Below, in pieces: positions 5,322 through 48,988 of a DNA stretch of 64,000 nt. The position numbers and the translations under genes are program-made. This DNA comes from Candidatus Methylacidiphilales bacterium (GTDB lineage Bacteria; Verrucomicrobiota; Verrucomicrobiia; Methylacidiphilales; UBA1321): assembly GCA_041287705.1 (NCBI GenBank), contig JBGGNE010000021.1, positions 12,282-76,281 on the forward strand, written 5' to 3'. The notes below the pieces were generated by a model. It saw only the letters and a program-made list of their open reading frames with translations, was not told where the DNA came from and did not search any database. Within the stretch, counting starts at the first letter, position 1. Each line of letters opens with the position of its first letter.

Positions 5322-5450
5322 GCCCATATGAGTAAGAAATTTCTGATAATGGGCAGAACCGCGAATGTTTTCACGCGAAATCTGTAAAAAATCCGCCCCA
5401 GAACGCCTTTTCTGCTGCCCATCGATCATTTTTGGGTGTATGCTCCCAAC

Positions 5451-6176
5451 ATGAGCCAGAGCGACAGCGATCTCTCCAACGATGCGGCGACCGGCGCACC
5501 CGTCTTTGTGCCACCGCCTTTTTGCTGGAGCAACATAGGGGTGGAAGGCGATGCCACCTGCCCCGAGCTCAACGCCATGTTGCACTGTCGCAACTGCCCC
5601 GTCTTTGCCAGGGCGGGCCGCGAACTCCTGGATCGCCCAGCCCCGGACGGCTACCTGCTGCAGTGGGTGACGCTGCTCTCCGAGCCCAAGGAAACGCGGG
5701 TACGTGCGCTTCGCCAGATCATGCTGTTCCGCCTGGGCAGCGAATGGCTGGCCATGTGCGCCACGGCGTTTCGCGAAGCGATGGACCGCACGGAAGTTCG
5801 CCGCATTCCGCACCGCACTACTGATGTACTGCTGGGACTGGTAAACGTGCGCGGTGAAGTCCAGATCTGCTTTTCCATGGCGCGGCTGCTCGGTATTGAG
5901 GAAGCGCCGGTGGATGAACGCAAGGTTAAGATGAGCTACACGATTTATAAGCGTCTGGCTGTCGCCAACAAAGAGGGCCATACGTGGGTGTTCCCGGTCG
6001 ATGAGTTTTACGGCGTGATGGAGCTGGATGAAGCTGAGGACCTGCGGCCTGTGCCTGTCACTGTCGCAAAGTCGCACGTCTCTTTCAGCCGTGGAATGTT
6101 TACGTATGAAAAGCAGAACGTGTCTCTGCTGGATGACGACCTTGTCTTTTATCAGTTGCGTAAGAATCACATGTAG
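5451..6176 (+). CDS. cheW: CheW-like coupling protein with Cys-rich N-terminal extension (WspD-like)
   Basis: The CheW domain is IMLFRLGSEWLAMCATAFREAMDRTEVRRIPH...LLGLVNVRGEVQICFSMARLLG. The N-terminus carries C-x11-C-x8-C-x2-C (FCWSNIGVEGDATCPELNAMLHCRNCPVF). The start is ATG 5451 or GTG 5436. Confidence 0.85.
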   Translation: MSQSDSDLSNDAATGAPVFVPPPFCWSNIGVEGDATCPELNAMLHCRNCPVFARAGRELLDRPAPDGYLLQWVTLLSEPKETRVRALRQIMLFRLGSEWLAMCATAFREAMDRTEVRRIPHRTTDVLLGLVNVRGEVQICFSMARLLGIEEAPVDERKVKMSYTIYKRLAVANKEGHTWVFPVDEFYGVMELDEAEDLRPVPVTVAKSHVSFSRGMFTYEKQNVSLLDDDLVFYQLRKNHM

Positions 6177-6246
6177 ACGCGTCTATCCTGTCCGGCTTTT
6201 GCCTCTTCCTTCGTTGTATTTAACTTTTACCTGAACTTTAACGGCA

Positions 6247-9200
6247 TTGAGCACCTACTCCTCATCCTCTTCTTCGTCCATGGGCGGTGATGACTCGTCC
6301 GGATTTTCCATGCTGGAGCTCTTTCGTGCCGAAGCAGAAGGCCAGACACAGACGCTGAGCGAGGGCCTGGTAGCGCTGGAGACAGATCCGAATCCCGGCG
6401 CTCTTCTTGCCGAAATGATGCGCGCGGCCCACTCTCTGAAAGGCGCCGCCCGCATTGTGGGGCTGTTGCCGGCGGAAAGCGTGGCTCACGTCATGGAGGA
6501 CGTGTTTGTTGCCGCACAGGATGGGGCTGTAACCCTGGGGCCGGCCCAGGTGGATGATCTGCTGGTTGCCGTGGATTTTCTGACCAAACTTCGCACACTA
6601 CAGGAGCACGAAATCGAAAGCTGGAAGGCGAGCGTCACGGGCGAAGTCGCTGTGTTGGAAGCCCGCCTGAAAGGCCTGCTGGAGTCCGATTCAGCCGCCA
6701 CATCTCAAAGCCAGCGTGTCCTGGCCAAACAGCGTGAAGCAATTCAGGCGAAGGAACACGCGGAGTCGGAAGTGCCGCCGGAGAATGCTGCGGATACAAC
6801 GTCTTGGGAACCAGTTCCGGAATCCCCCGTATCGCTGGCAACTCCCGCGATTGCCGGGGGAGATAATCGCGACAATGCGCTGGAGAGCGGTGAATTCTCT
6901 CTGATGGGGCTTTTCCGTGAAGAGCTGTTGAAGCACTCGACAAAGCTGGCGGAATGCATCCGCCTGTCGGATGAAGCGCACGATCCGTTGCATGCCGGCG
7001 ATCAAGGCCTGGGCAAACGGGATATCGCGCTGCAACAGGAGATGATTCATGCCGCAGCAGCCATAAAGGCCTCGGCCCAGATTGTGGAGTTTGTTGAAGT
7101 GCAGGAGCTTGCGGGATCCATGGAGCAGGGACTGACGCGCTGGAAGGCCGCGGGGCTGGATCTGGCTGCGCAACGAGCCACATTGGTTAGAATGGCGCTT
7201 CAGTTCCTCCAGGAGATCGCCAAATGCAAGGATGCCGACATGGGTGCGCTTGTGGAGAAGAAACGCGCTGCCATGACGGAAGTGGCCCATCGCCTGCGAA
7301 CGCCACAGACTGACTCCCGGCCGTCAGAGTCGAATCCTGCTTCCGCTAAAGCCCCCTCCAAAGTAGCAGCGCCTGCTTCTGCCACGACTTCCCCTGCTCC
7401 CATTCCCGTTCGCGCCCCGCCCTCCATAGTACAGGCATTAAAGGTAAAGGCAACCGCCGCCGCAGGCGCTCCCAGCAGACAGGAGGCAGTCGGATCCCAG
7501 CAGCATCCCCATCATGCGGCAGGCCCACAGTCGATTGCCGCACAGCATCTTAACCGAATCTCAACAGAGACGCGCGATACGCACTCACGGGAAGTCGCCG
7601 CTGCAATGGCCCCGCGTAACGAGGCTACAGTGCGCATTTCGGCGGATTTGCTGTCCAGCCTTACCGGTCTGGCAGCGGAAATACTGGTCGGTGCGCGGCA
7701 GTTGGAGCCTCTGGCAGCGCGGCTTACAGCTTTTCGCCAGGAGCAGATTCGCCTCGCTTCACTTCTGGCTCGCATTCAGTCCGGAATGGTGACGAGCGAA
7801 GGCGTGAAGATGGGGCTCACTCCGGGAGAACAGTCTGCCAACGGACTGGTCCAGGAAGCGAACGGTACGGAGGAGCAATCCTACTATTCAGGTCGTGAGA
7901 AAGGGACTTCATATGTCCCTTCATTCACTTCCGCGACATCAGCCCCCTCGCAAGGGACTTTTTCACCCGAATCCGCCGCATGGTTCGCCGCCGAAGGCAA
8001 AATGGATGGGGTGGGAGGCATGCCAGGCAATACCATCACCAGCATGGGTGAAGGAACCGCTTTTCTGCCTCCGTTGCCTGGTTTTCCAGGCTCGCATGAT
8101 TCAGGTTCCGCGCACAATTTCAGCTCAGGTGCATCAGCCAGTGCTTCGGTATCCTCAGTATCTACGGCCGCTTCCGCGGATTCAAGCGCGTTGGGGGCTC
8201 CCATTAACATGCGCGGGCCTCGCGGCTATCTGATCGCGGAGCTTACGCGGACCATGAACGCCAATAATGAGATTCTGGCGGCCTGGATGCAGGAGTTCCA
8301 GGTCTATATGCATCGTTTTGGCAATACGGCAGATCGCCTGTATCAGGACGCCCTGGCCACCCGTATGCGCCCCTTTGGTGATGGCACGCATGGTTTCCCC
8401 CGGCTGGTTCGCGACCTTGCCCGCCAGCTTGGGAAGAAAGTGCGCATGCAGATTCTGGGCGAGGAAACCAAGGTGGATCGCGAAATCCTGGAGAAACTGG
8501 AAGCTCCCCTCACCCATTTGATCCGTAACGCTCTGGATCACGGTTTTGAAACTCCTGAAGAACGCCTCGCTCTTGGCAAGTCCGAGGAAGGCATGTTGCG
8601 CCTGGAAGCCCGTCACAGAGGCGGCGTGCTTGTCGTCACCCTGACAGATGATGGCCATGGCATCAATATCAACAGCCTGCGCGCCAAGGTGGTAGAGCGC
8701 GGACTGGAGACAGCCGAGGTGGTCTCGCGTCTAAGCGAAGCCGAGGTCATGGAGTTTCTGTTCCTCCCGGGCTTTTCGACTGCCGAGAAGGTAACCGATG
8801 TCTCCGGGCGCGGCATTGGTCTGGATGTCGTCCGGCATGTAGTGCAGGTGGCGGGCGGTTCGGTCAATGTCCACGCCAAGGAAAACGCCGGCTGCACTTT
8901 CCAGATCAGCGTTCCGATTACGCGCTCGGTGATTAAAGCACTGCTGGTACGTGTGGCGGATGAACCTTACGCCCTGCCGCTGGCTCGTATAGATAAGACG
9001 GCGCGGGTACGACAGTCAGAGCTTGGCTCCATGGAAGGCCGCCTCTATCTGAACTGCGCTTATTACGGGAATGTAGGTCTCGTGTCTGCCCAGGAGATCT
9101 TCAAGCTGCCGGCCAATCTGCCGCCGCAGGCCAGCGCCGACGTCAACATCGTGGTAATCAGCGATCGCATGAACCGATACGGGCTGGTGGTGGACGAGTT

Positions 9201-9777
9201 TATCGGTGCCCGTGATCTGGTAGTCCGACCGCTGGACGCCCGACTGGGCAAGGTGCCGGATATCAGCGCAGCCAGCGTGATGGATGACGGCAAGATCGCA
9301 CTGGTGGTGGATGTGGACGACGTAGTGCGATCCATCGACAGCATGCTGAGCGGCGGCGGATTGCGCAAAGTACACCAGGCGGAGGCGATTGCGGCTCCCA
9401 AAGCTCGACGAATCCTGGTCGTCGATGACTCCTTTACGGTGCGGGAAGTGGAACGTCGTCTGCTGGAAAGTCATGGCTACACCGTGGAGGTGGCTGTCGA
9501 TGGAATGGAAGGCTGGAACGCGGTGCGCAGCTCAAATTTTGATCTGCTGATCACCGATGTGGATATGCCGCGCATGACGGGTATTGATTTAGTGCGCAAT
9601 ATAAAAGAGGATAACCGCCTGAAACAGCTCCCCGTCATGATTGTCAGCTACAAGGATCGCGATGCCGACCGCAAGGAAGGCTTCGAAGCGGGCGCTGATT
9701 ATTATTTCCCGAAGAGCAGCTTCCACGACGCCCGACTGGTCAATGCCGTGGAAGATCTGATAGGTAAGGCGGTATAA
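6247..9777 (+). CDS. cheA: Hybrid CheA-type histidine kinase with C-terminal receiver (WspE-like): HPt, second HPt-like segment, split dimerisation region, HATPase, CheW-like P5, REC
   Basis: HPt: MMRAAHSLKGAARIVGL. Second HPt-like segment: MIHAAAAIKASAQIVEF. ATPase: LTHLIRNALDHGFE, TDDGHGIN, FLPGFSTAEKVTDVSGRGIGLDVV. P5: IKALLVRVADEPYALPL. REC: RILVVDDSFTVRE...DLLITDVDMPRMTG...YFPKS. The start is TTG 6247 or ATG 6280. Confidence 0.9.
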   Translation: MSTYSSSSSSSMGGDDSSGFSMLELFRAEAEGQTQTLSEGLVALETDPNPGALLAEMMRAAHSLKGAARIVGLLPAESVAHVMEDVFVAAQDGAVTLGPAQVDDLLVAVDFLTKLRTLQEHEIESWKASVTGEVAVLEARLKGLLESDSAATSQSQRVLAKQREAIQAKEHAESEVPPENAADTTSWEPVPESPVSLATPAIAGGDNRDNALESGEFSLMGLFREELLKHSTKLAECIRLSDEAHDPLHAGDQGLGKRDIALQQEMIHAAAAIKASAQIVEFVEVQELAGSMEQGLTRWKAAGLDLAAQRATLVRMALQFLQEIAKCKDADMGALVEKKRAAMTEVAHRLRTPQTDSRPSESNPASAKAPSKVAAPASATTSPAPIPVRAPPSIVQALKVKATAAAGAPSRQEAVGSQQHPHHAAGPQSIAAQHLNRISTETRDTHSREVAAAMAPRNEATVRISADLLSSLTGLAAEILVGARQLEPLAARLTAFRQEQIRLASLLARIQSGMVTSEGVKMGLTPGEQSANGLVQEANGTEEQSYYSGREKGTSYVPSFTSATSAPSQGTFSPESAAWFAAEGKMDGVGGMPGNTITSMGEGTAFLPPLPGFPGSHDSGSAHNFSSGASASASVSSVSTAASADSSALGAPINMRGPRGYLIAELTRTMNANNEILAAWMQEFQVYMHRFGNTADRLYQDALATRMRPFGDGTHGFPRLVRDLARQLGKKVRMQILGEETKVDREILEKLEAPLTHLIRNALDHGFETPEERLALGKSEEGMLRLEARHRGGVLVVTLTDDGHGININSLRAKVVERGLETAEVVSRLSEAEVMEFLFLPGFSTAEKVTDVSGRGIGLDVVRHVVQVAGGSVNVHAKENAGCTFQISVPITRSVIKALLVRVADEPYALPLARIDKTARVRQSELGSMEGRLYLNCAYYGNVGLVSAQEIFKLPANLPPQASADVNIVVISDRMNRYGLVVDEFIGARDLVVRPLDARLGKVPDISAASVMDDGKIALVVDVDDVVRSIDSMLSGGGLRKVHQAEAIAAPKARRILVVDDSFTVREVERRLLESHGYTVEVAVDGMEGWNAVRSSNFDLLITDVDMPRMTGIDLVRNIKEDNRLKQLPVMIVSYKDRDADRKEGFEAGADYYFPKSSFHDARLVNAVEDLIGKAV

Positions 9778-9901
9778 GCTGCCCAGCCGCCAGGCGCCAC
9801 GGTTGCTGCTTCGGCAAAATCTGTCGCCCATTCGTTCCTTCACTTTCCACCATGCCCATGTTCTTCTCTCACCCGAAAGCGCCCCGCCCGCTCCGATCCG
9901 A

Positions 9902-10942
9902 ATGAAGGTAGCCATTGTAAATGACATGGCTTTTGCCGTCGAGGCACTGCGCCGCGTGGTGGCCGCCACACCGCACTACCGATTGATATGGACCGCCCAC
10001 GACGGTGCAGAAGCCGTGGAGAAATGCCGTGCCGAGCGGCCGGACATGATCCTGATGGACCTGATCATGCCGACCATGGACGGAGTGGAAGCCACGCGCC
10101 GCATCATGCGGGAGTCGCCTTGCACCATCCTGATTGTCACCGCCACCGTGGACCGTAATACAGCCCGCGTGTACGACGCGCTGGGGTACGGTGCCGCGGA
10201 CGCCGTTGATACACCCACGCTCGACTTTGATGGCAGCATGGAGGGGGCCGCGCAGCTCATCCGCAAAATGGACAGCCTGCGTATACTGGCCTCGAGCGGC
10301 GACGCGATTGCCCAGCGCACCCGCCTGATGAAAGGTTCTCGCCGCCTCAGCGCGGCGACACCGCAGTTCCCCATCCTTGTCGTGGGTTCTTCGACTGGCG
10401 GACCGCAGGCGCTCGCTTCGATCTTTTCGGCACTGCCGCGCGATTTCCCTGCTGCAATCGCTGTCACCCAGCATGTGGATCACCACTTTGTGGATGGACT
10501 GGTGCACTGGCTGCAGGATCAGTCACAGCTCCGTATTCAGATGGCCAACCCAGGTGACGCGCTTGAGCCGGGAAAGGTCCTGGTTGCGTCGCGCGAGGAG
10601 CACCTGGCTATTCGCTCGGACCGGACGGTCTATTATACCGGCGAGCCTTCAGAAACGCCATATCGACCCAGTGTCGATGTGCTTTTTCGCAGCGCTGCCT
10701 CCTGCCGCGGCACCCGGTTGTGCGGAGTGCTGCTGACCGGCATGGGCAAAGACGGCGCTGCCGGTCTGCTGGACCTGAAGCGCGCCAATGCCTTCACGAT
10801 AGCGCAGGACGAGGAAAGCTGTGTGGTGTACGGTATGCCGCGGGCAGCTGTGGAAATGGGCGCCGCGAAGGAAGTGCTGTCCCTCGACCGGATTTCCGCA
10901 CGCCTGATGCGTTGGGCGGAAAACACCCTTGTCGGGGAATAA
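9902..10942 (+). CDS. cheB: Protein-glutamate methylesterase with N-terminal receiver (CheB, WspF-like)
   Basis: MKVAIVNDMAFAVEALRRVV...DMILMDLIMPTMDGVEATRRIM is the REC domain. VVGSSTGGPQAL...VTQHV...LTGMGKDGA carries the methylesterase Ser/His/Asp regions. I chose the start at internal ATG 9902. Confidence 0.9.
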   Translation: MKVAIVNDMAFAVEALRRVVAATPHYRLIWTAHDGAEAVEKCRAERPDMILMDLIMPTMDGVEATRRIMRESPCTILIVTATVDRNTARVYDALGYGAADAVDTPTLDFDGSMEGAAQLIRKMDSLRILASSGDAIAQRTRLMKGSRRLSAATPQFPILVVGSSTGGPQALASIFSALPRDFPAAIAVTQHVDHHFVDGLVHWLQDQSQLRIQMANPGDALEPGKVLVASREEHLAIRSDRTVYYTGEPSETPYRPSVDVLFRSAASCRGTRLCGVLLTGMGKDGAAGLLDLKRANAFTIAQDEESCVVYGMPRAAVEMGAAKEVLSLDRISARLMRWAENTLVGE

Positions 10943-10991
10943 AAATTACGCTAAATGCTTTAGCAGCACCTATTTTATTACGATATTAAGT

Positions 10992-11160
10992 TTAGGAGTC
11001 GCTGCCGAATAACCTATAGAACTTGGAGTGATGATTTTGAGATGAGAGCAAGGCGGGATGAAGGGAGTGCATGAGAATAACGCTCGACCTGAATTCCAAC
11101 GAAGCTATCGCTCAAAAGCGACGCTCCAAGTCCTATAGGTTATTCGGCAGCGACTCCTTA
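10992..11160. mobile_element. MITE-like palindromic element, copy 1 (163-bp element 10995..11157 flanked by direct TTA/TTA)
   Basis: The arms are GGAGTCGCTGCCGAATAACCTATAGAACTTGGAG (10995..) and its complement CTCCAAGTCCTATAGGTTATTCGGCAGCGACTCC (..11157), pairing at 33 of 34 positions. The central ~105 nt is about 90% identical to the second copy at 46418..46582. TTA is present at 10992-10994 and 11158-11160. Confidence 0.7.
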
Positions 11161-11213
11161 GCGGCGTTAAATAGAATTATCTTTCTCACTGCAACATTAT
11201 CTCACAACAAACT

Positions 11214-12434
11214 GTGAAAACTGATCCTCTTCCCGCTACACCGCGCAGTGAGTTCCGCCAGCATGCCATTAAGGTATTTCTTATTGATGATCAGCTGCTG
11301 ATTGGCGAGGCGGTGCGCCGCATGCTGGCCGGAGAGCCAGGCATTGAGTTTAAATTCTGTAGCGACCCCGCCAAAGCAGAAGCCATGGCCGTAGAGTTTC
11401 AACCCACGCTTATCCTGCTGGATCTGGTAATGCCAGGCATTGATGGCCTGACCATGGTAAAGACATTTCGTGCCAATCCCGAAACACTGCAGATACCGCT
11501 CATTGTGCTCAGCGCCAAGGAAGAGCCCAAGATCAAAGCCGAAGCATTCGCCATCGGAGCTAACGACTACCTGGTGAAGCTGCCTGACAAGATTGAGCTG
11601 ATAGCGCGTATTCGATATCACTCCAATGCTTACATCACCCTTCTCCAGCGCAATGAAGCCTATGAGGCCCTGATGTGCAGCCAGCGCGCCCTTGCCGCGG
11701 AGCTTCAGGAAGCCGCCGAATACGTACGCTCGCTGTTGCCCGCGCCGATGATAGGGTCCATCACCACATCGTGGAAGTTTTTCTCCTCCACAAGCCTGGG
11801 TGGCGATGCTTTTGGCTACCATTGGCTGGATGATGACAATTTTGCAATTTTTCTTCTGGATGTGTGCGGACATGGCGTGGGCGCTGCCCTCCTCAGCGTT
11901 TCCATCATGAATTCCATCAAGACACGGCCTCTTCTGACCGTGGATTTTCATCAGCCCAATCAGGTGCTGAAGGCGTTAAATGCCGCCTACCCCATGGAAA
12001 AGAACAATAACATGTACTTTACCATGTGGTATGGAGTTTATAACAAGACGAGCCGCAAGCTGACCTACAGCACGGGCGGCCATCCACCCGCTGTGATGAT
12101 TTCAGGCAATCCGGGCACTCAGGGTGACGGCCCCAGCCATATCGAAATGCTTCGCACGAGGGGTATGATGATCGGCGCCCTGATGATCTCCGACTTTGAG
12201 AACGACGAGACGGAAATCCCGGCCGGCGCGCGTCTTTTTGTCTTTAGCGATGGGGCCTACGAAGTTAAACGTCCCGGTCGAGAGATGATGGAGCTGGATG
12301 AACTGGTCGAAATCCTGGTTCCGGACCCCGGCGACAGCACCAAACTGGACATGGTTGTCGACGAAGTAAGGCGCCAGCAGGGCCACGATAATTTTGTTGA
12401 CGACTTCTCTCTGCTCGAAATTCGATTCGAATAG
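11214..12434 (+). CDS. Response regulator with PP2C/SpoIIE-type Ser/Thr phosphatase output domain
   Basis: REC: KVFLIDDQLLIGE...LILLDLVMPGIDG...VLSAKEE...DYLVKLPD. PP2C/SpoIIE: GGDAFGYHWLDDDNFAIFLLDVCGHGVGAALLS...LFVFSDGAYE...DDFSLLEI. GTG start. Confidence 0.85.
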   Translation: MKTDPLPATPRSEFRQHAIKVFLIDDQLLIGEAVRRMLAGEPGIEFKFCSDPAKAEAMAVEFQPTLILLDLVMPGIDGLTMVKTFRANPETLQIPLIVLSAKEEPKIKAEAFAIGANDYLVKLPDKIELIARIRYHSNAYITLLQRNEAYEALMCSQRALAAELQEAAEYVRSLLPAPMIGSITTSWKFFSSTSLGGDAFGYHWLDDDNFAIFLLDVCGHGVGAALLSVSIMNSIKTRPLLTVDFHQPNQVLKALNAAYPMEKNNNMYFTMWYGVYNKTSRKLTYSTGGHPPAVMISGNPGTQGDGPSHIEMLRTRGMMIGALMISDFENDETEIPAGARLFVFSDGAYEVKRPGREMMELDELVEILVPDPGDSTKLDMVVDEVRRQQGHDNFVDDFSLLEIRFE

Positions 12435-12469
12435 TGAGATAGTAGTAGCAAAAATAGGGAGAAGATAAC

Positions 12470-12871
12470 ATGACCACAAATGACAATCAGTTTATCGATC
12501 TTATCCAGCTACTACTAAGTGATACAGAGAAAGAAGCCGCAGTCGTTTTATTAAAAGAACAACCAGAGCTGCTCGAAGCAAGGAACTCGCGTGGGATGAC
12601 GGCGCTTATGGAAGTGAGCCTGCTGGGAAATGCGGAAGCCGCTGAATTTCTCATCCAGAGCGGCGCGCAGGTGAACGCCAAATCGGACAAAGAAGGCCGC
12701 ACCGCGATGCACTTTGCCGCCGAGCATGGCCATGTGGATGCGTACTGCATCCTTAAAGACAATGGCGGCGATGATACGCAGCCGGATATCAAACGCGATA
12801 CGCCCCGCAATGTGCTGGATTGGTATTTCTCCCCCGTAGGCTCCGCCATGCGGGCCGCCAGGGAGAAATAG
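12470..12871 (+). CDS. Ankyrin-repeat protein
   Basis: RGMTALMEVSLLGNAEAAEFLIQSGAQVNAKSDKEGRTAMHFAAEHGHVDAYCILKDNGGD has the G-x-TALH...G...LL..GA motif repeated. It starts 35 nt after the REC-PP2C gene, with gggaga upstream of the ATG. Confidence 0.8.
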   Translation: MTTNDNQFIDLIQLLLSDTEKEAAVVLLKEQPELLEARNSRGMTALMEVSLLGNAEAAEFLIQSGAQVNAKSDKEGRTAMHFAAEHGHVDAYCILKDNGGDDTQPDIKRDTPRNVLDWYFSPVGSAMRAAREK

Positions 12872-12930
12872 CCTGCCGCCTTTCGCACGGTGACATACGC
12901 CACCGTTCTGCGCCTTCTGGATCATTTCGC

Positions 12931-35910: not shown

Positions 35911-35934
35911 CAAAAATCCCTTCGTGAAAAAGGG
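35911..35934 (-). terminator. Terminator hairpin directly after tRNA-Gly copy 1
   Basis: The minus strand reads tccctt-tttcacg-aaggga-ttttt immediately after the discriminator base. Confidence 0.55.
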
Positions 35935-36007
<73 letters not shown>

Positions 36008-36230: not shown

Positions 36231-36253
36231 AAAATCCCTTTGTGAAAAAAGGG
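36231..36253 (-). terminator. Terminator hairpin directly after tRNA-Gly copy 2
   Basis: The minus strand reads tcccttt-tttcac-aaaggga-ttttg. Confidence 0.55.
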
Positions 36254-36326
<73 letters not shown>

Positions 36327-42784: not shown

Positions 42785-45700
42785 ATGGCGATGGCTCCCC
42801 TGCCCCCAGATGAGTCGCAGAGACTGGCTTCCCTGCGCTCGCTCATCGAATACGGCGTTACCAGCGAGGAGCGGCTGGGACGTATCACGCGGTTGGCCAA
42901 ACGACTCTTTAAAGTTCCGGCCGGCGCCATCACCCTCGTAGAGCGGGAGCAGCAACGTTTCTACGGTGCCTTTGGCAGTGAGCTTATTCATGGTGAAAGA
43001 GAAAACAGCTTCAACAGCTACGCCATCCTTCAGGACGCGCCCCTCATCGTCCCCGATGCTCTTCAGGATTCCCGGTTCTGCGATATTCCGCAGGTTGTAA
43101 AAGGCGGAGTCCGCTCTTATGCCGGTTGCGCCCTGCATACGCCAGATGGAAGCCGCGTAGGCGCCCTGTTTGTGTTGGATGTTGAGCCGCACGCTTTTGC
43201 GGACGATGACGTACGCGAGCTTGTTGATCTGGCCCGCCTGGCGGAAGACGAACTCTGCCTGCGTATGTGGCAGACGGCCTGGGATGAGCGCGAGCGTACG
43301 GAAGCCAATTACCTTCTCAGCCAGCGCCGATTTCAGGATGTCGCGGACGCCATGGGCGAGTACATCTGGGAAATCGACAGTCAGGCCAGATACACATATC
43401 TAAGCGATCGTTTCTGCGACATGCTGGGCTACACGCGCGAGGAAGCGCTGGGCCGTGCCATGTTCGATTTTATGATCGCGGGCGATGCGGAGGCCGTGCG
43501 GTACTGGTTCTTCGAGCAGGTGGCCGCCCATCGGCACCCATTCCGCAGCCTGGAATTCCGCAGTGTCAGCAAGCAGGGCTATCTTATCTGGCAGTCGGTC
43601 AGCGGCGTGCCTGTTGTCGATAATTCCGGGGAACTGACCGGCTACCGTGGCGCCGGTCTGGATGTAACGGATCGCAAGCGCTCCGAGGAGCGGACCCGGC
43701 TGCTGGAGCAGGCCGTCAATGACGCGATGGAAAGTGTGCTGATCACCGACACAACGCTCAATCATCCGGGCCCAACGATCATTTATGCCAATCGCGCGGC
43801 TGAGCGCATGACCGGCTATCTTCGCGACGAACTCGTTGGCAAAAGCCCTCGCCTTCTGCAGGGACCCAAAACCAACAAGGACATGCTGCGCCATTTGCGT
43901 ATGGCGCTGGACCAGGGCCGCGGTTTTCAGGCGGAAAGCGTCAATTACCGCAAGGATGGCTCCGAGTATGTCGTGGAGCTTCATATCTCCCCGATCCGCG
44001 ATTCGCATGGCGTTATTACGCACTGGCTTTCCGTGCAGCGCGATATCAGCGAACGCCAACAGGCCGAGCAGGCGCTGCGCGACGCCGAAGAGTCGTACCG
44101 CACGATCTACGAGAACGTAAAGGAAGGTATCTTCCAGACCACGGTGGACGGCCGCTTTTGCAGCGCCAACCCCGCGCTCGCCCATATCTACGGCTACGAA
44201 TCTCCCGAAGATTTACTCGAGTGCGTCGAAGACGTTTCGACCCAGCTATATTGCGAGCCAAGCCGGCGGGAGGAAATCTGTATCTTCATTGACCGCGAAG
44301 GCGAAGTGCACGGACTGGAGTCCCGTGTGTATCGAAAGGACGGCTCGTCGATCTGGATTTCAGAGACATCGCGCGCGGTCCGCGATGAAGACGGGCAGCT
44401 TCTTTATTACGAAGGAACTGTTCAGGACATCACCGACCGCAAGAAGGCGGACGATGAACTGCGACGCGCGAAGGAAGCCGCCGAAACGGCAAATCAGGCG
44501 AAATCGGAATTTCTGGCGAACATGAGCCACGAAATCCGCACGCCCATGAACGCAATTGTGGGTCTTACGGGTCTCCTTCTCGATACAGAGCTGACATCCG
44601 AGCAGCGCGAATACGTGGAAACCGTACGTCAGAGCGGCGACGCGCTTCTTACGATCATCAACGACATTCTGGACTTCTCCAAGATCGAGAGCGGCAAGCT
44701 GGAAATTGAGCACGCGCCGTTCAACCTCCGTCTCATGCTGGAGGAAGCCGTGGACTACGTCAGCTCTCGCGCCAGCGAAAAGAAGCTGGATCTGGCAAGC
44801 CTGGTGGATCCCGGAGTGCCCCAGCAGTTTCTGGGTGATGTTACCCGTTTACGCCAGATCATTGCGAATCTGCTCAGCAACGCGGTGAAGTTCACCGAAA
44901 AGGGCGAAGTTTCCGTCACTGTTACCACCTCACGCCACGACGAGGGCGGCTGGTACTCGGTCACATTTGCCGTGCGCGATTCCGGCGTGGGCATTCCGCA
45001 GAACAAGATGGACCGGCTTTTCCGCTCGTTCAGCCAGGTGGATGCCTCCACCACACGCAAATACGGCGGCAGCGGACTGGGCCTCGCCATCAGCAAGAAG
45101 CTGAGCGAACTGATGGGCGGGGAAATTCATGTGGAAAGCAAAGTGGGCATTGGCTCCGTCTTTACCATCACCGTTCCGCTGGAAGGCGGCAGTGTGCAGA
45201 ACAGCCAGTTGCCCCTGCCCGCAGTGCGCCCCAACCTGAACGGCAAGACACTACTGGTAGTCGACGATAATGCCAGCGTGCGCCAGATGATCTCCAATCT
45301 GGGCGAAATGTGGAATATGAATGTGGTGCAATCGACCGACAGCCGCCATGCCCTGCAACTGGTGCAGCGCGGCCTGACGTTTGATGTAGCGCTTATTGAA
45401 CTCGAACTGCCCACCATTGACGGTGTGCGTCTTGGCCAGGAAATCGCCCGGCATCGCGGTCCGGAAACGCCGCCTCTCATTCTGCTGACCAGCATTTCCA
45501 ATCAGGCCGAACTTGTGAAGCGCATGCCACAGGGCTTCATCGCCAGCGTGGCGAAGCCAGTGCATATGGAGCAGCTACAGGAGATGCTGGATCAAAGCGT
45601 CACAGGACGCCGCGTCACCAAGAAATCATTGCGCTCTACCGGCAAAATCGATCCGCTGTTCGGCAAACGCCGCCCGATGAAGATACTGCTGGCCGAAGAT

Positions 45701-46417
45701 AATCCGGTCAACCAGAAGGTGGCGATGCGTATTCTCTCGCAAATGAGTTATCGCCCGGACGTTGCCCAGAATGGTCTGGAAGCACTTCAGGCGGTTGAGC
45801 GTCAAAACTATGACGTGATTCTCATGGACGTGCAGATGCCGGAAATGGACGGCCTGGAATCAACGCGCCAGATCCGCAAGCTGAAGAATAAGAAACAGCC
45901 CTACATCATCGCCATGACGGCCAACGCCATGCCCGGCGACAGCGACCGCTGTCTGGCCGCCGGCATGGACGCCTACATGAGTAAGCCGGTGCGCGTGGAG
46001 CAGCTTCAGACAGAACTGGCCAAATGCAGCGACAGTATGAAGCAGGTCGTCGATCTTTCCGCACTGGAACACTTTAGCCATCTTGGCGGCGAAAGTGATG
46101 AGGAAGGCCTGCTGGAAATCATCAACCTCTTCCTTGTCGACAGCCCCCGCACTGTCCACGCGCTGAATACCTCCCTGCAAAAGGAGGATGCAAACGCGAT
46201 CTACTATCACGCCCACACGTTAAAGGGCAGCTGCAGCAACTTCGGCGCAAAGCAGATGCAGATGGTCTGCACCAATATCGAAGAATTCGCCCGAAAACAG
46301 GATTTCAGCAGCGTCAGTGACTTACTCGAAGCCCTTCAGGCAGAGTTTGTCGAAGTGAAGAAAGCGCTGGAGTTGAAGCGGATGGATATCAAGAGCCGGC
46401 TGGCTTCCAGTCGGTAA
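42785..46417 (+). CDS. Hybrid sensor histidine kinase: GAF - three PAS - HisKA - HATPase - two REC - HPt
   Basis: The H-box is FLANMSHEIRTPMNAIVG. The ATPase is NLLSNAVKFT, RDSGVGIP and GGSGLGLAI. REC1 is LLVVDDNASV...ALIELELPTIDG. REC2 is ILLAEDNPVNQ...VILMDVQMPEMDG...MSKP. The C-terminal HPt is YYHAHTLKGSCSNFGA. PAS/GAF segments lie N-terminal to these. Confidence 0.9.
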   Translation: MAMAPLPPDESQRLASLRSLIEYGVTSEERLGRITRLAKRLFKVPAGAITLVEREQQRFYGAFGSELIHGERENSFNSYAILQDAPLIVPDALQDSRFCDIPQVVKGGVRSYAGCALHTPDGSRVGALFVLDVEPHAFADDDVRELVDLARLAEDELCLRMWQTAWDERERTEANYLLSQRRFQDVADAMGEYIWEIDSQARYTYLSDRFCDMLGYTREEALGRAMFDFMIAGDAEAVRYWFFEQVAAHRHPFRSLEFRSVSKQGYLIWQSVSGVPVVDNSGELTGYRGAGLDVTDRKRSEERTRLLEQAVNDAMESVLITDTTLNHPGPTIIYANRAAERMTGYLRDELVGKSPRLLQGPKTNKDMLRHLRMALDQGRGFQAESVNYRKDGSEYVVELHISPIRDSHGVITHWLSVQRDISERQQAEQALRDAEESYRTIYENVKEGIFQTTVDGRFCSANPALAHIYGYESPEDLLECVEDVSTQLYCEPSRREEICIFIDREGEVHGLESRVYRKDGSSIWISETSRAVRDEDGQLLYYEGTVQDITDRKKADDELRRAKEAAETANQAKSEFLANMSHEIRTPMNAIVGLTGLLLDTELTSEQREYVETVRQSGDALLTIINDILDFSKIESGKLEIEHAPFNLRLMLEEAVDYVSSRASEKKLDLASLVDPGVPQQFLGDVTRLRQIIANLLSNAVKFTEKGEVSVTVTTSRHDEGGWYSVTFAVRDSGVGIPQNKMDRLFRSFSQVDASTTRKYGGSGLGLAISKKLSELMGGEIHVESKVGIGSVFTITVPLEGGSVQNSQLPLPAVRPNLNGKTLLVVDDNASVRQMISNLGEMWNMNVVQSTDSRHALQLVQRGLTFDVALIELELPTIDGVRLGQEIARHRGPETPPLILLTSISNQAELVKRMPQGFIASVAKPVHMEQLQEMLDQSVTGRRVTKKSLRSTGKIDPLFGKRRPMKILLAEDNPVNQKVAMRILSQMSYRPDVAQNGLEALQAVERQNYDVILMDVQMPEMDGLESTRQIRKLKNKKQPYIIAMTANAMPGDSDRCLAAGMDAYMSKPVRVEQLQTELAKCSDSMKQVVDLSALEHFSHLGGESDEEGLLEIINLFLVDSPRTVHALNTSLQKEDANAIYYHAHTLKGSCSNFGAKQMQMVCTNIEEFARKQDFSSVSDLLEALQAEFVEVKKALELKRMDIKSRLASSR

Positions 46418-46585
46418 GGAGTCTCCGGAAAATAAACGGTGCAACTTAAGTCGTCGATTTTGAGATGAGAGCAAGGCGGAATGAAGGGAGTGCATTAGAA
46501 TAAGGCGCTGACCGGAATTCCAACGCTGCTCTCGCTCAAAAGCGGAGGCTCAAGTTGCGCAGGTTATTTCTCCGGAGACTCCTAA
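46415..46585. mobile_element. MITE-like palindromic element, copy 2 (165-bp element 46418..46582 flanked by direct TAA/TAA; the left TAA is the kinase stop codon)
   Basis: The termini GGAGTC...GACTCC are the same as in copy 1. The core GATTTTGAGATGAGAGCAAGGCGGAATGAAGGGAGTGCATTAGAATAA...GAATTCCAACG...TCGCTCAAAAGCG is about 90% identical to copy 1. The arms are about 55% identical to copy 1 but still mutually complementary. Confidence 0.7.
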
Positions 46586-46669: not shown

Positions 46670-46715
46670 CAACTCTATCCGTTCAACCGCGGACGCAGTT
46701 GAATGGATAGAGTTG
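46670..46715. terminator. 46-nt hairpin downstream of the NTF2-like gene (possible bidirectional terminator)
   Basis: caactctatcc gttcaac ... gttgaa t ggatagagttg forms 11 + 6 bp stems. There is no clear U-tract. Confidence 0.35.
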
Positions 46716-48946: not shown

Positions 48947-48988
48947 TTTTCCATTACAGGCCACAAATGGGTGGTCTGTAATGGAAAA
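48947..48988 (+). terminator. Long hairpin after gdhA (possible terminator)
   Basis: ttttccattacaggccac / aaatgg / gtggtctgtaatggaaaa gives about 17 bp of pairing with one bulged t. No downstream U-tract. Confidence 0.35.

What the first reader, a model, noticed from the sequence alone, without database searches (positions are those of the whole stretch)
10992..11160. Palindromic ~165-bp element (copy 1) with conserved core and copy-specific self-complementary arms, inserted between the CheB and REC-PP2C genes
Seen: the 163-bp element begins GGAGTC and ends GACTCC, and its 34-nt arms pair at 33 of 34 positions. The central ~105 nt is about 90% identical to a second copy at 46418..46582 (GATTTTGAGATGAGAGCAAGGCGGGATGAAGGGAGTGCATGAGAATAA...GAATTCCAACG...TCGCTCAAAAGCG). 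The arms are only about 55% identical between copies, yet each copy keeps its own arms complementary. An inner stem (TTTTGAG/CTCAAAA, GAGAGC/GCTMTC) is also shared. The element is flanked by direct TTA...TTA. Established: 3-bp TWA duplications are typical of IS5/PIF-Harbinger-type transposition, and MITEs normally conserve their termini rather than their centre. Inference: this is a non-autonomous mobile element or a structured RNA/DNA hairpin whose long stem is under selection through compensatory change. Its position splits the Wsp-like operon from its output gene, so it may act as a terminator or insulator. No transposase is present in this window.
Basis: partly seen in the sequence, partly recalled or inferred. 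Interest (0 to 1): 0.65.

Follow-up and report, generated by a model that had tools for sequence, protein, structure and literature searches.

The report
New palindromic mobile repeat in Verrucomicrobia
The 163-bp palindrome between the CheB and REC-PP2C genes is one copy of a high-copy, non-coding, transposon-like repeat of an uncultured soil verrucomicrobium; that is an ordinary kind of element, but its conserved core also occurs, inside quite different stems, in gammaproteobacteria.

Summary
Copy 1 (10995-11157) and copy 2 (46418-46582) are near-perfect hairpins. They share a core that is 90% identical, and each is flanked by a 3-bp direct repeat (TTA/TTA and TAA/TAA). The arms are not copy-specific. 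In the soil metagenome that holds the window, copy-2-type sequence is about 200-350 times deeper than its flanks, and copy-1-type arms are about 5-15 times deeper. So the two copies belong to two subfamilies of a repeat present in hundreds of copies. The CheB/REC-PP2C site has no element in the two nearest relatives. No ORF, Rfam family, plasmid match, phage match or ERIC similarity was found.

Best reading (confidence 0.6): this is a new family of palindromic, MITE-like elements. It inserts at TWA and folds into a roughly 75-bp RNA hairpin inside host transcripts. The transposase is unknown.

One result was unexpected. The bipartite core (GAGAUGAGAGCAAGGCGG ... UUCCAACGNNGCUAUCGCUC) recurs between rplI and dnaB in gammaproteobacterial contigs, at low copy. 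There the outer and apical stems have different sequences that still pair, and the same A·G mismatch is kept. The core may therefore be a structured module in its own right.

A terminator or insulator role is not supported by the sequence and remains untested.

The parts
10992..10994 (.). Left flanking direct repeat TTA of copy 1 (putative target-site duplication)
   Evidence: Read from the sequence. It matches 11158-11160.
10995..11157 (+). Copy 1 of the palindromic repeat (163 bp, GGAGTC...GACTCC). It belongs to the minor, 'typical-arm' subfamily.
   Evidence: Word depth on its arms is 40-130 against 8.5 on the flanks in run X1. The same arm type appears in other runs.
10994..11038 (+). Left arm (outer stem, 5' strand) of copy 1. 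The conserved blocks are AGGAGTC, GAATAA and AACTT.
11039..11056 (+). Core block A, GAGATGAGAGCAAGGCGG. It is identical in copy 1, copy 2, L001, L002, L019 and L024.
11057..11093 (+). Apical hairpin (P2) of copy 1. It is conserved among the verrucomicrobial copies and replaced by an unrelated, longer hairpin in the gammaproteobacterial version.
11094..11113 (+). Core block B, TTCCAACGAAGCTATCGCTC. It pairs with block A.
11114..11158 (+). Right arm (outer stem, 3' strand) of copy 1
11158..11160 (.). Right flanking direct repeat TTA of copy 1
9803..10942 (+). CheB (REC + methylesterase), the upstream neighbour of copy 1. The database gene call starts at about 9902.
   Evidence: Pfam; gene calls.
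11214..12434 (+). REC-PP2C (SpoIIE) response regulator, the downstream neighbour of copy 1
46415..46417 (.). Left direct repeat TAA of copy 2. It is also the stop codon of the hybrid histidine kinase gene 42785-46417.
46418..46582 (+). Copy 2 (165 bp). It belongs to the major subfamily. Block A is 46462-46479 and block B is 46518-46537.
   Evidence: Depth is 1300-2650 against about 7 on the flanks in run X1. Model R1 hits it at E = 6e-11.
46583..46585 (.). Right direct repeat TAA of copy 2

Best explanation
Both copies belong to a previously undescribed family of ~165-bp palindromic, non-coding, MITE-like repeats of an uncultured soil verrucomicrobium. Its closest named relative is 'Verrucomicrobia bacterium LW23'.

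Proposed mechanism:
- The element is bounded by GGAGTC...GACTCC terminal inverted repeats.
- It inserts at T(T/A)A and duplicates those 3 bp.
- It cannot move on its own, so a transposase encoded elsewhere must mobilise it. This step is inferred; an IS5/PIF-like DDE enzyme is only a guess from the TWA duplication.
- It has amplified to the order of 100 or more copies, in subfamilies that keep a common core while the arms differ.

Copy 1 is a lineage-specific insertion into the CheB/REC-PP2C junction of a Wsp-like operon. Copy 2 inserted exactly at the stop codon of a histidine kinase gene, and the duplication regenerated that stop codon.

When read through by host transcription, the element folds into a ~75-bp rod-like hairpin. 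Its most likely local effect is as an RNA processing or stability determinant: a double-strand RNase target or a 3'-exonuclease barrier. That would uncouple the upstream and downstream cistrons. This effect is inferred by analogy with ERIC, YPAL and Correia elements and was not shown here.
For: 1. High copy number with many flanks. Logan contigs of the source metagenome give word depth 1300-2650 over copy 2 against 6-8 on its flanks, from 136 contig pieces. Copy-1 arms give 40-130 against 8.5. Loose-end consensus flanks have low agreement, which indicates many different insertion sites.
2. The public MAG of this organism is broken into ~4.6-kb contigs, and a Logan contig ends inside the element. 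This is expected for a dispersed repeat.
3. The element is absent at the orthologous site. In LW23 (81% amino-acid identity) the gap between CheB and REC-PP2C is ~100 nt and holds no element. In Tous-C9LFEB the two genes overlap by 4 nt.
4. Terminal inverted repeats and 3-bp direct repeats are present: TTA/TTA, TAA/TAA and TTA/TTC in L002. The consensus flanks in the metagenome are ...CTT|AGGAGTC and GACTCCT|TAG.
5. There is no coding capacity. Only short ORFs are present, and peptide searches gave one unrelated weak hit and nothing else.
6. A decayed half copy in LW23 (L001) and full copies in a Chthoniobacter MAG (L002) and in other runs show an old family with lineage-specific expansion.
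7. The hairpin is very stable (z = -12 and -10). An element contig is present in a soil metatranscriptome.
Against: - No autonomous element or transposase with matching ends was found, either in the window or anywhere I could search.
- The target-site duplication rests on only three complete copies plus a consensus. No base-exact empty site was found, because the flanks in relatives are too diverged.
- The centre is better conserved than the arms. The same core occurs in gammaproteobacteria at low copy with unrelated stems. A plain transposase-binding-TIR model does not predict this.
- The copy number is inferred from metagenome k-mer depth and could be spread over several related genomes.
- The RNA-level effect is entirely inferred.
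Confidence: 0.6

Rival explanations
1. The functional unit is the conserved bipartite core, acting as a structured RNA. It could be a cis-acting element, a small RNA gene, a protein-binding platform or a ribozyme. On this view the long arms are only a closing stem, and the many verrucomicrobial copies are a secondary spread of that RNA module.
For: - Block A (18/18) and block B (19/21 against L002) are kept between Verrucomicrobiota and gammaproteobacterial contigs, while P1 and P2 have unrelated sequences that still pair.
- 13 of 31 pairs show changes on both sides. 84.5% of cells are paired, against 38-46% when the partners are slid.
- An A·G mismatch at a fixed distance from the core is present in all five sequences.
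- The orthologous loci L019 and L024 differ by 3 compensatory pairs and have no broken pair.
- A further variant in run X11 changes G to A together with C to U at a predicted pair, and another copy has a third P1 sequence.
- A covariance model built only from the two gammaproteobacterial loci finds exactly the two window copies, on the + strand only, at E about 1e-10; the next best hit is 0.19.
- The forward strand folds better than the reverse complement in all five sequences.
Against: - Orientation relative to transcription is inconsistent. The element is sense to the upstream gene in copy 1, copy 2 and L002, but antisense to rplI/dnaB in L019/L024 and to both neighbours in L001.
- The excess of G·U over A·C mismatches is not significant (9:4).
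- No Rfam family matches, and no convincing promoter or terminator was found.
- Only five full sequences were available. L019 and L024 were found with the block-A word itself, so block A identity and part of the score come from how they were found.
- The terminal repeats, TWA flanks and hundreds of copies still require a DNA mobility mechanism.
Confidence: 0.25
2. The element is mobilised as a folded single strand of DNA by an enzyme that recognises the hairpin. Candidates are a RAYT/TIRYT-type HUH tyrosine transposase, as for REP/REPIN elements, or a tyrosine recombinase, as for integron attC sites. The conserved bulges and mismatches of the core would be the recognition features.
For: - The architecture resembles folded attC or IS200/IS605 ends in logic: a conserved stem with fixed bulges (AU/G, AA, AAC) and fixed mismatches (A·G, G·A), plus an apical structure of variable length and sequence.
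- The arms co-vary, as expected if hairpin formation is needed for mobility.
- The core is strand-asymmetric.
- Verrucomicrobia are known to be rich in REPs (PMC3733652).
Against: - The element is 165 bp and has no terminal GTAG or CGTC tag. REPs are 20-40 bp (PMC3733652).
- HUH single-strand transposition makes no target duplication, yet the left and right flanks co-vary here (TTA/TTA, TAA/TAA).
- The attC R'' and R' boxes (RYYYAAC / GTTRRRY) are absent in the verrucomicrobial copies, and GTT is broken in L024.
- No RAYT or integrase gene was seen next to any copy.
Confidence: 0.1
3. The elements are locally evolved transcription terminators or insulators, rather than inserted mobile DNA.
For: - All complete copies lie just after a gene end.
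- The hairpin is very strong.
Against: - No U-run follows the stem, and the + strand terminator scan found nothing.
- Hundreds of near-identical copies with different flanks cannot arise in situ.
- Copy 1 sits inside an operon whose two genes are translationally coupled in a relative.
Confidence: 0.04

Closest known systems
ERIC / IRU elements of Enterobacteriaceae and Vibrionaceae (127-bp imperfect palindromes)
   Same: - It is an intergenic, non-coding, whole-length imperfect palindrome that is transcribed with its neighbours.
- It has a conserved central part.
- It is low copy in some hosts and very high copy in others.
- Orthologous copies evolve with compensatory changes.
The ERIC properties are from my own knowledge; the parallels in this element are.
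   Different: - There is no sequence similarity. An E. coli ERIC fetched for comparison (L052) does not share the core.
- The phylum and the length (163-165 bp) differ.
- The flanking repeat is 3-bp TWA.
YPAL (Yersinia, ~167 bp) and Correia/NEMIS (Neisseria) MITEs
   Same: - The size class is the same.
- Terminal inverted repeats are present.
- It folds into a long RNA hairpin inside mRNAs, where those elements act as RNase targets or stability determinants.
The properties of those families are from my own knowledge; they are listed as MITEs in PMC3733652.
   Different: - The sequence is unrelated.
- Correia elements duplicate TA, not TWA.
- No RNA processing data exist for this element.
MITEs of the IS5 / PIF-Harbinger type (3-bp TNA/TWA duplications)
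   Same: - A 3-bp TTA or TAA direct repeat flanks the element.
- The termini start with GG, and a GAATAA block lies 13-18 nt in. This is reminiscent of IS5 and IS903 ends as I recall them, which is a lead and not a test.
   Different: - No matching transposase or full-length IS was found.
- The arms are less conserved than the centre.
REP / REPIN elements with RAYT transposases
   Same: - It is a high-copy extragenic palindrome.
- Its arms co-evolve to keep a hairpin.
- The family has subfamilies.
   Different: - REPs are 20-40 bp with a GTAG or CGTC tag, and the conserved part is the arm rather than the centre (PMC3733652).
- This element has no tag at its ends, has TWA flanks, and has no RAYT nearby.
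Integron attC sites (folded single-strand recombination sites)
   Same: The structural logic is shared: a conserved stem with fixed unpaired bases, topped by a variable terminal structure.
   Different: - The R''/R' consensus is absent.
- There is no integron integrase or cassette array.
- The copies are dispersed and carry TWA flanks.

Membership tests
Bacterial MITE | Small (about 70-300 bp) with no coding capacity | tested here: met
   The copies are 163 and 165 bp. Only short ORFs are present. Peptide searches found no family: one returned nothing and the other gave a single weak hit in an unrelated 847-aa protein.
Bacterial MITE | Terminal inverted repeats | tested here: met
   AGGAGTC.../...GACTCCT termini. 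The inverted repeat is 48 nt at 90% in copy 1 and 21 + 35 nt in copy 2. The same termini occur in L002 and L001.
Bacterial MITE | Target-site duplication of fixed length | tested here: inconclusive
   The flanks are TTA/TTA, TAA/TAA and TTA/TTC in three complete copies, and TTA on both sides in the metagenome consensus. The sample is too small, and no base-exact empty site is available.
Bacterial MITE | Many dispersed copies with unrelated flanks | tested here: met
   Depth is about 200-350 times the flank depth, and 136 contig pieces have divergent flanks in run X1. There are two copies 35 kb apart in the window.
Bacterial MITE | Presence/absence at orthologous sites | tested here: met
   The element is absent between CheB and REC-PP2C in LW23 and Tous-C9LFEB. 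The comparison is between species, not base-exact.
Bacterial MITE | A related autonomous IS with the same ends supplies the transposase | not testable with these tools
   No whole genome of the host was accessible. No transposase lies next to any copy seen. The arm has no match in plasmids.
REP / REPIN | 20-40-bp stem-loop tagged by a terminal GTAG or CGTC, with an associated RAYT | tested here: not met
   The element is 163-165 bp and its ends are GGAGTC/GACTCC. CGTC occurs only sporadically inside some arms (definition from PMC3733652).
ERIC | Sequence similarity to the ERIC consensus | tested here: not met
   A genuine E. coli ERIC was retrieved and read. It does not share the core.
Any Rfam RNA family | Covariance-model score at or above the gathering threshold | tested here: not met
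   Only two tRNAs pass in the window. Low-threshold scans of both copies, L001, L002, L019 and L024 give only sub-threshold generic long-hairpin (miRNA-precursor) matches.
Integron attC | R'' RYYYAAC and R' GTTRRRY boxes at the base of the folded stem | tested here: not met
   The verrucomicrobial copies have GATTTTGAG/CTCAAAAGC. L019 fits R' (GTTAGAT), but L024 has GTCAGAT.
Intrinsic terminator | GC-rich stem followed directly by a U-run | tested here: not met
   There is no terminator-like site on the + strand at either copy. The only site found, on the - strand inside copy 2's apical hairpin, is no more than shuffled sequence gives (1 found, 0.8 expected). The tails are TTAGCGG and TAAGCCG.

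The most novel reading that the evidence does not exclude
The ~45-nt bipartite core is a new, widely distributed structured nucleic-acid motif shared by Verrucomicrobiota and Gammaproteobacteria. It reads GAG-AU-GAGAGC-AA-GGC-GG ... CC-AAC-GNN-GCUAUC-G-CUC, and it has a conserved A·G mismatch four base pairs beyond the conserved GAG/CUC. On this reading the core is itself the selected, functional unit. It could be the recognition module of a hairpin-dependent mobility system, or an RNA with its own activity (protein-binding, regulatory or catalytic). The verrucomicrobial repeat would then be that module captured and amplified between transposon-like arms.
Probability: 0.3. Interest if true: 0.75.

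Novelty: new member of a known kind. Interest (0 to 1): 0.45.

Why it matters
- For annotation: this one repeat family explains why assemblies of this lineage fragment. It should be masked or annotated rather than read as a regulatory site of the Wsp-like operon.
- For biology: copy 1 places a hairpin of about -95 kcal/mol between two genes that are translationally coupled in a relative. It is therefore a natural experiment in operon uncoupling.
- More broadly: a core kept nearly base-for-base between two phyla, inside stems that co-vary, is the signature of a structured RNA or single-stranded DNA module that is not in Rfam. If confirmed, it would add either a new RNA motif or a new type of hairpin-recognising mobility system. 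It would also give a case where the centre of a MITE, not its ends, is the conserved part.

Tried and rejected
- Rfam, at gathering thresholds and at permissive thresholds, on both copies and on the related loci gave nothing real.
- The genome-collection scan with a 20-mer of the core gave only LW23 (a half copy) and a Chthoniobacter MAG.
- The metagenome scan with the 18-mer gave 24 loci. Twenty-two were chance or coding matches; L019 and L024 were real.
- The viral-contig scan with a two-block pattern gave chance matches in coding DNA only.
- blastn of the element, the core and the arm against plasmids and phages gave nothing, or single chance words.
- I tried to harvest more copies through spurious ORFs called inside the element, using the minus-strand peptide MHSLHSALLSSQN... 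There were no hits in the 5.8-billion protein index and one irrelevant hit among 1.84 billion representatives. This spent one capped protein search for nothing.
- ERIC homology, which I suspected from memory because of a 'CCAACGC' word, was rejected after reading a real ERIC.
- Look-ups of window-edge ORFs, meant to extend the contig, failed because the start codons did not match the recorded products.
- A base-exact empty site could not be obtained, because the LW23 intergenic region is unalignable.
- Strand bias of wobble pairs was 9 G·U against 4 A·C, which is not significant.
- No RNA runs were found for the gammaproteobacterial locus.
- A literature search for the core word and for an rplI-dnaB RNA motif found nothing relevant.

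Full report
**1. The observation**

- Copy 1 is 10995-11157, 163 bp, running GGAGTC...GACTCC. Its first 34 nt pair with its last 34 nt at 33 positions.
- The inverted repeat extends to 48 nt at 90% complementarity.
- Copy 2 is 46418-46582, 165 bp. Its arms pair at 77-86% with one single-base indel.
- The 88/89-nt cores are 90% identical. The arms are 62-67% identical.
- The flanks are TTA/TTA and TAA/TAA. The left TAA of copy 2 is the stop codon of the hybrid histidine kinase gene 42785-46417.

Chance is excluded. The folds have z = -12.3 and -10.1 against shuffles. Zero chance matches of the core words are expected in the window. These are the two longest inverted repeats in the 64 kb.

**2. 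Where the window comes from**

The window comes from a soil metagenome. The same locus is in an ENA assembly, in a Logan contig, and on a 4.6-kb contig of MAG GCA_035460925.1. The closest named organism, judged by the REC-PP2C protein, is 'Verrucomicrobia bacterium LW23' at 81% identity. NCBI lists it as unclassified Verrucomicrobiota.

**3. It is a high-copy dispersed repeat, and the arms are subfamily-specific**

I laid the assembled contigs of the source run on copy 2. Word depth was 1300-2650 across the element against 6-8 on the flanks. There were 136 contig pieces, and the loose-end consensus for the flanks had low agreement, which indicates many different flanks. Copy 2's arms are therefore the consensus of a major subfamily present at about 200-350 genome-equivalents.

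Laid on copy 1, only the shared core is that deep. The copy-1 arms reach 40-130 against 8.5 on the flanks, so copy 1 belongs to a minor subfamily.

Partial copies from a soil metatranscriptome and from runs of four other coded organisms carry copy-1-like arms (...GAATAAACTATAGAACTT, then 6-8 variable bases, then GATTTTGAG). The arm skeleton AGGAGTC-n-CCGCn-GAATAA-n-TATAGAACTT is therefore widespread. Copy-2-type arms are a diverged form that expanded in this lineage.

Some stem mismatches recur in many copies. Examples are left AATAAAC against right AATAACC, and the A·G next to UUUU. They are inherited from master copies. Against that, copy 2 differs from copy 1 at many arm positions on both sides in parallel. 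Pairing has therefore been kept through a large divergence.

The copy number per genome is an inference, because k-mer depth could be shared among related genomes. Two observations agree with it: the density of two copies in 64 kb, and the fragmentation of the MAG.

**4. It is an insertion**

In LW23 the orthologous CheB and REC-PP2C genes are about 100 nt apart with no element. In Tous-C9LFEB (64% identity) they overlap by 4 nt. The window's gap is 271 nt, which is about 106 nt plus the 163-bp element and a 3-bp repeat.

The LW23 spacer cannot be aligned base for base. The target duplication is therefore supported only by the following:
- three complete copies (TTA/TTA, TAA/TAA, and TTA/TTC in the Chthoniobacter MAG locus L002);
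- the left flank TAA of the LW23 half copy;
- the consensus flanks in the metagenome.

The element has no coding capacity. No transposase lies beside any copy that I could read. LW23 keeps only a decayed left half between a deoC-like gene and a GntR-type gene. The family therefore predates the split from LW23 and expanded later.

**5. The unexpected part: the core exists outside the phylum**

Two contigs from one metagenome project (the Ga0316207 records, L019 and L024) were different. Block A is followed by an unrelated 57-nt hairpin and then by TTCCAACGCCGCCATCGCTC. That is block B, at 19 of 21 positions against L002. The whole is closed by a stem of different sequence (ATATAACGAG/CTCGTTAGAT).

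Block B was not part of the search pattern. Finding it at the right distance and in pairing register has a chance probability of about 1e-6 by my estimate.

These loci lie between rplI and dnaB. The gene order is rpsF-rpsR-membrane protein-rplI-[element]-terminator-dnaB-alr. I recognise that order as Pseudomonas-like, from my own knowledge. The 'forward' strand of the motif is antisense to those genes.

L019 was traced to a microbial mat metagenome (run X11). There its depth is only 1-2.5 times the flanks. The element is therefore low copy in that setting. Other contigs in that run carry the same core with other flanks. One has a third P1 sequence (GUGAAUAUU-GAG...CUC-AAUAGUCGC). Another has a G-to-A change together with a C-to-U change at a predicted pair.

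**6. Structure**

I cut out the P2 interior and made a gap-free alignment of copy 1, copy 2, L002, L019 and L024. On my proposed structure:
- 84.5% of cells are paired, against 38-46% for slid partners;
- 13 of 31 pairs show changes on both sides;
- none of 500 shuffles reached the observed covariation score.

Invariant features in all five sequences are:
- GAG/CUC;
- a 2x1 internal loop AU/G;
- GAGAGC/GCUAUC with a G·A mismatch in four of the five sequences;
- an AA bulge;
- GGC/GNN;
- an AAC bulge;
- GG/CC;
- an A·G mismatch four pairs below GAG.

The orthologues L019 and L024 differ by three compensatory pairs and have no broken pair.

A covariance model built only from L019 and L024 finds exactly the two window copies, on the + strand only, with E about 6e-11 and 2e-10. 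The next best hit is 0.19. One caveat applies. L019 and L024 were found with block A itself, so part of that score comes from how they were found. Block B and the helices are the independent part.

The forward strand folds better than its complement in all five sequences. The G·U to A·C bias (9:4) is not significant.

**7. What it is not**

- No Rfam family matches. Only sub-threshold generic long-hairpin matches appear.
- It is not ERIC. A real copy was retrieved and compared.
- It is not a REP or REPIN by size and tag (PMC3733652).
- It is not attC, because the R boxes are absent.
- It is not an intrinsic terminator, because there is no U-run.
- It has no relative in the plasmid or phage collections.

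**8. Most likely mechanism**

Shown:
- it is a non-coding, TIR-bounded, dispersed, high-copy palindrome;
- it is absent from the orthologous site in relatives;
- it has 3-bp TWA direct repeats in the few cases that can be read;
- a contig of it is present in one metatranscriptome.

Inferred:
- it is mobilised in trans by an unidentified transposase; the TWA repeat points towards IS5/PIF-like enzymes, but nothing else does;
- in read-through transcripts it forms a ~75-bp duplex that is a plausible RNase III substrate or exonuclease barrier, as described for ERIC, YPAL and Correia elements (my own knowledge);
- at copy 1 this would uncouple REC-PP2C from CheB.

I put 0.6 on this MITE reading. 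The main rival, at 0.25, is that the core is a functional structured RNA in its own right. A smaller rival, at 0.1, is mobility through a folded single strand of DNA. These readings are not fully exclusive. A mobile element whose recognition or fitness depends on a structured core would satisfy both, and would explain why the centre is more conserved than the arms.

**9. Verdict**

This is a real feature, correctly observed, and a new family within a known kind (bacterial palindromic MITE-like repeats). The 'copy-specific arms' claim and the terminator idea are not upheld. The cross-phylum core with co-varying stems is the part worth following up.

Noticed in passing
window 35933-36007 and 36252-36326 (- strand): Two tRNA-Gly(GCC) genes with identical Rfam scores lie 319 nt apart, forming a tandem duplicate.
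   Followed up: partly
window 46670-46715: A 22-bp, 91% complementary hairpin with a 2-nt loop lies about 85 nt after copy 2, between the convergent histidine kinase and SnoaL-like genes. No U-run follows it. It may be a terminator or another small repeat.
   Followed up: no
window 48947-48988: Another near-perfect 18-bp hairpin (TTTTCCATTACAGGCCAC / GTGGTCTGTAATGGAAAA) of unknown nature.
   Followed up: no
L001 (Verrucomicrobia bacterium LW23) 2385-2492 and 2569-2654: Two adjacent long, near-perfect hairpins are unrelated to this element. The second contains CCGTGTAATCTGTGTAATCCGTGGTTAA, and a similar word seems to recur near L001 1250-1330, judging from ORF translations. LW23 therefore carries other palindromic repeat families.
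   Followed up: partly
window 46470-46509 (variant seen in run X1): One metagenome contig carries a copy-2-type element that lacks these 40 nt (most of block A and the left half of P2). It is an internal-deletion variant.
   Followed up: no
window 10951-10985: Just upstream of copy 1 there is a small AT-rich hairpin (GCTAAATGCTTTAGC) followed by a T-rich stretch. It may be the original weak end of the CheB transcript or a spacer structure.
   Followed up: no
window ~5400-12900; L045 and L047: The Wsp-like cluster (CheW, hybrid CheA, CheB, REC-PP2C, then an ankyrin-repeat gene in the window) is conserved in LW23 and Tous-C9LFEB. CheB and REC-PP2C are spaced differently in each: a 4-nt overlap, about 100 nt, and 271 nt with the element.
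   Followed up: partly
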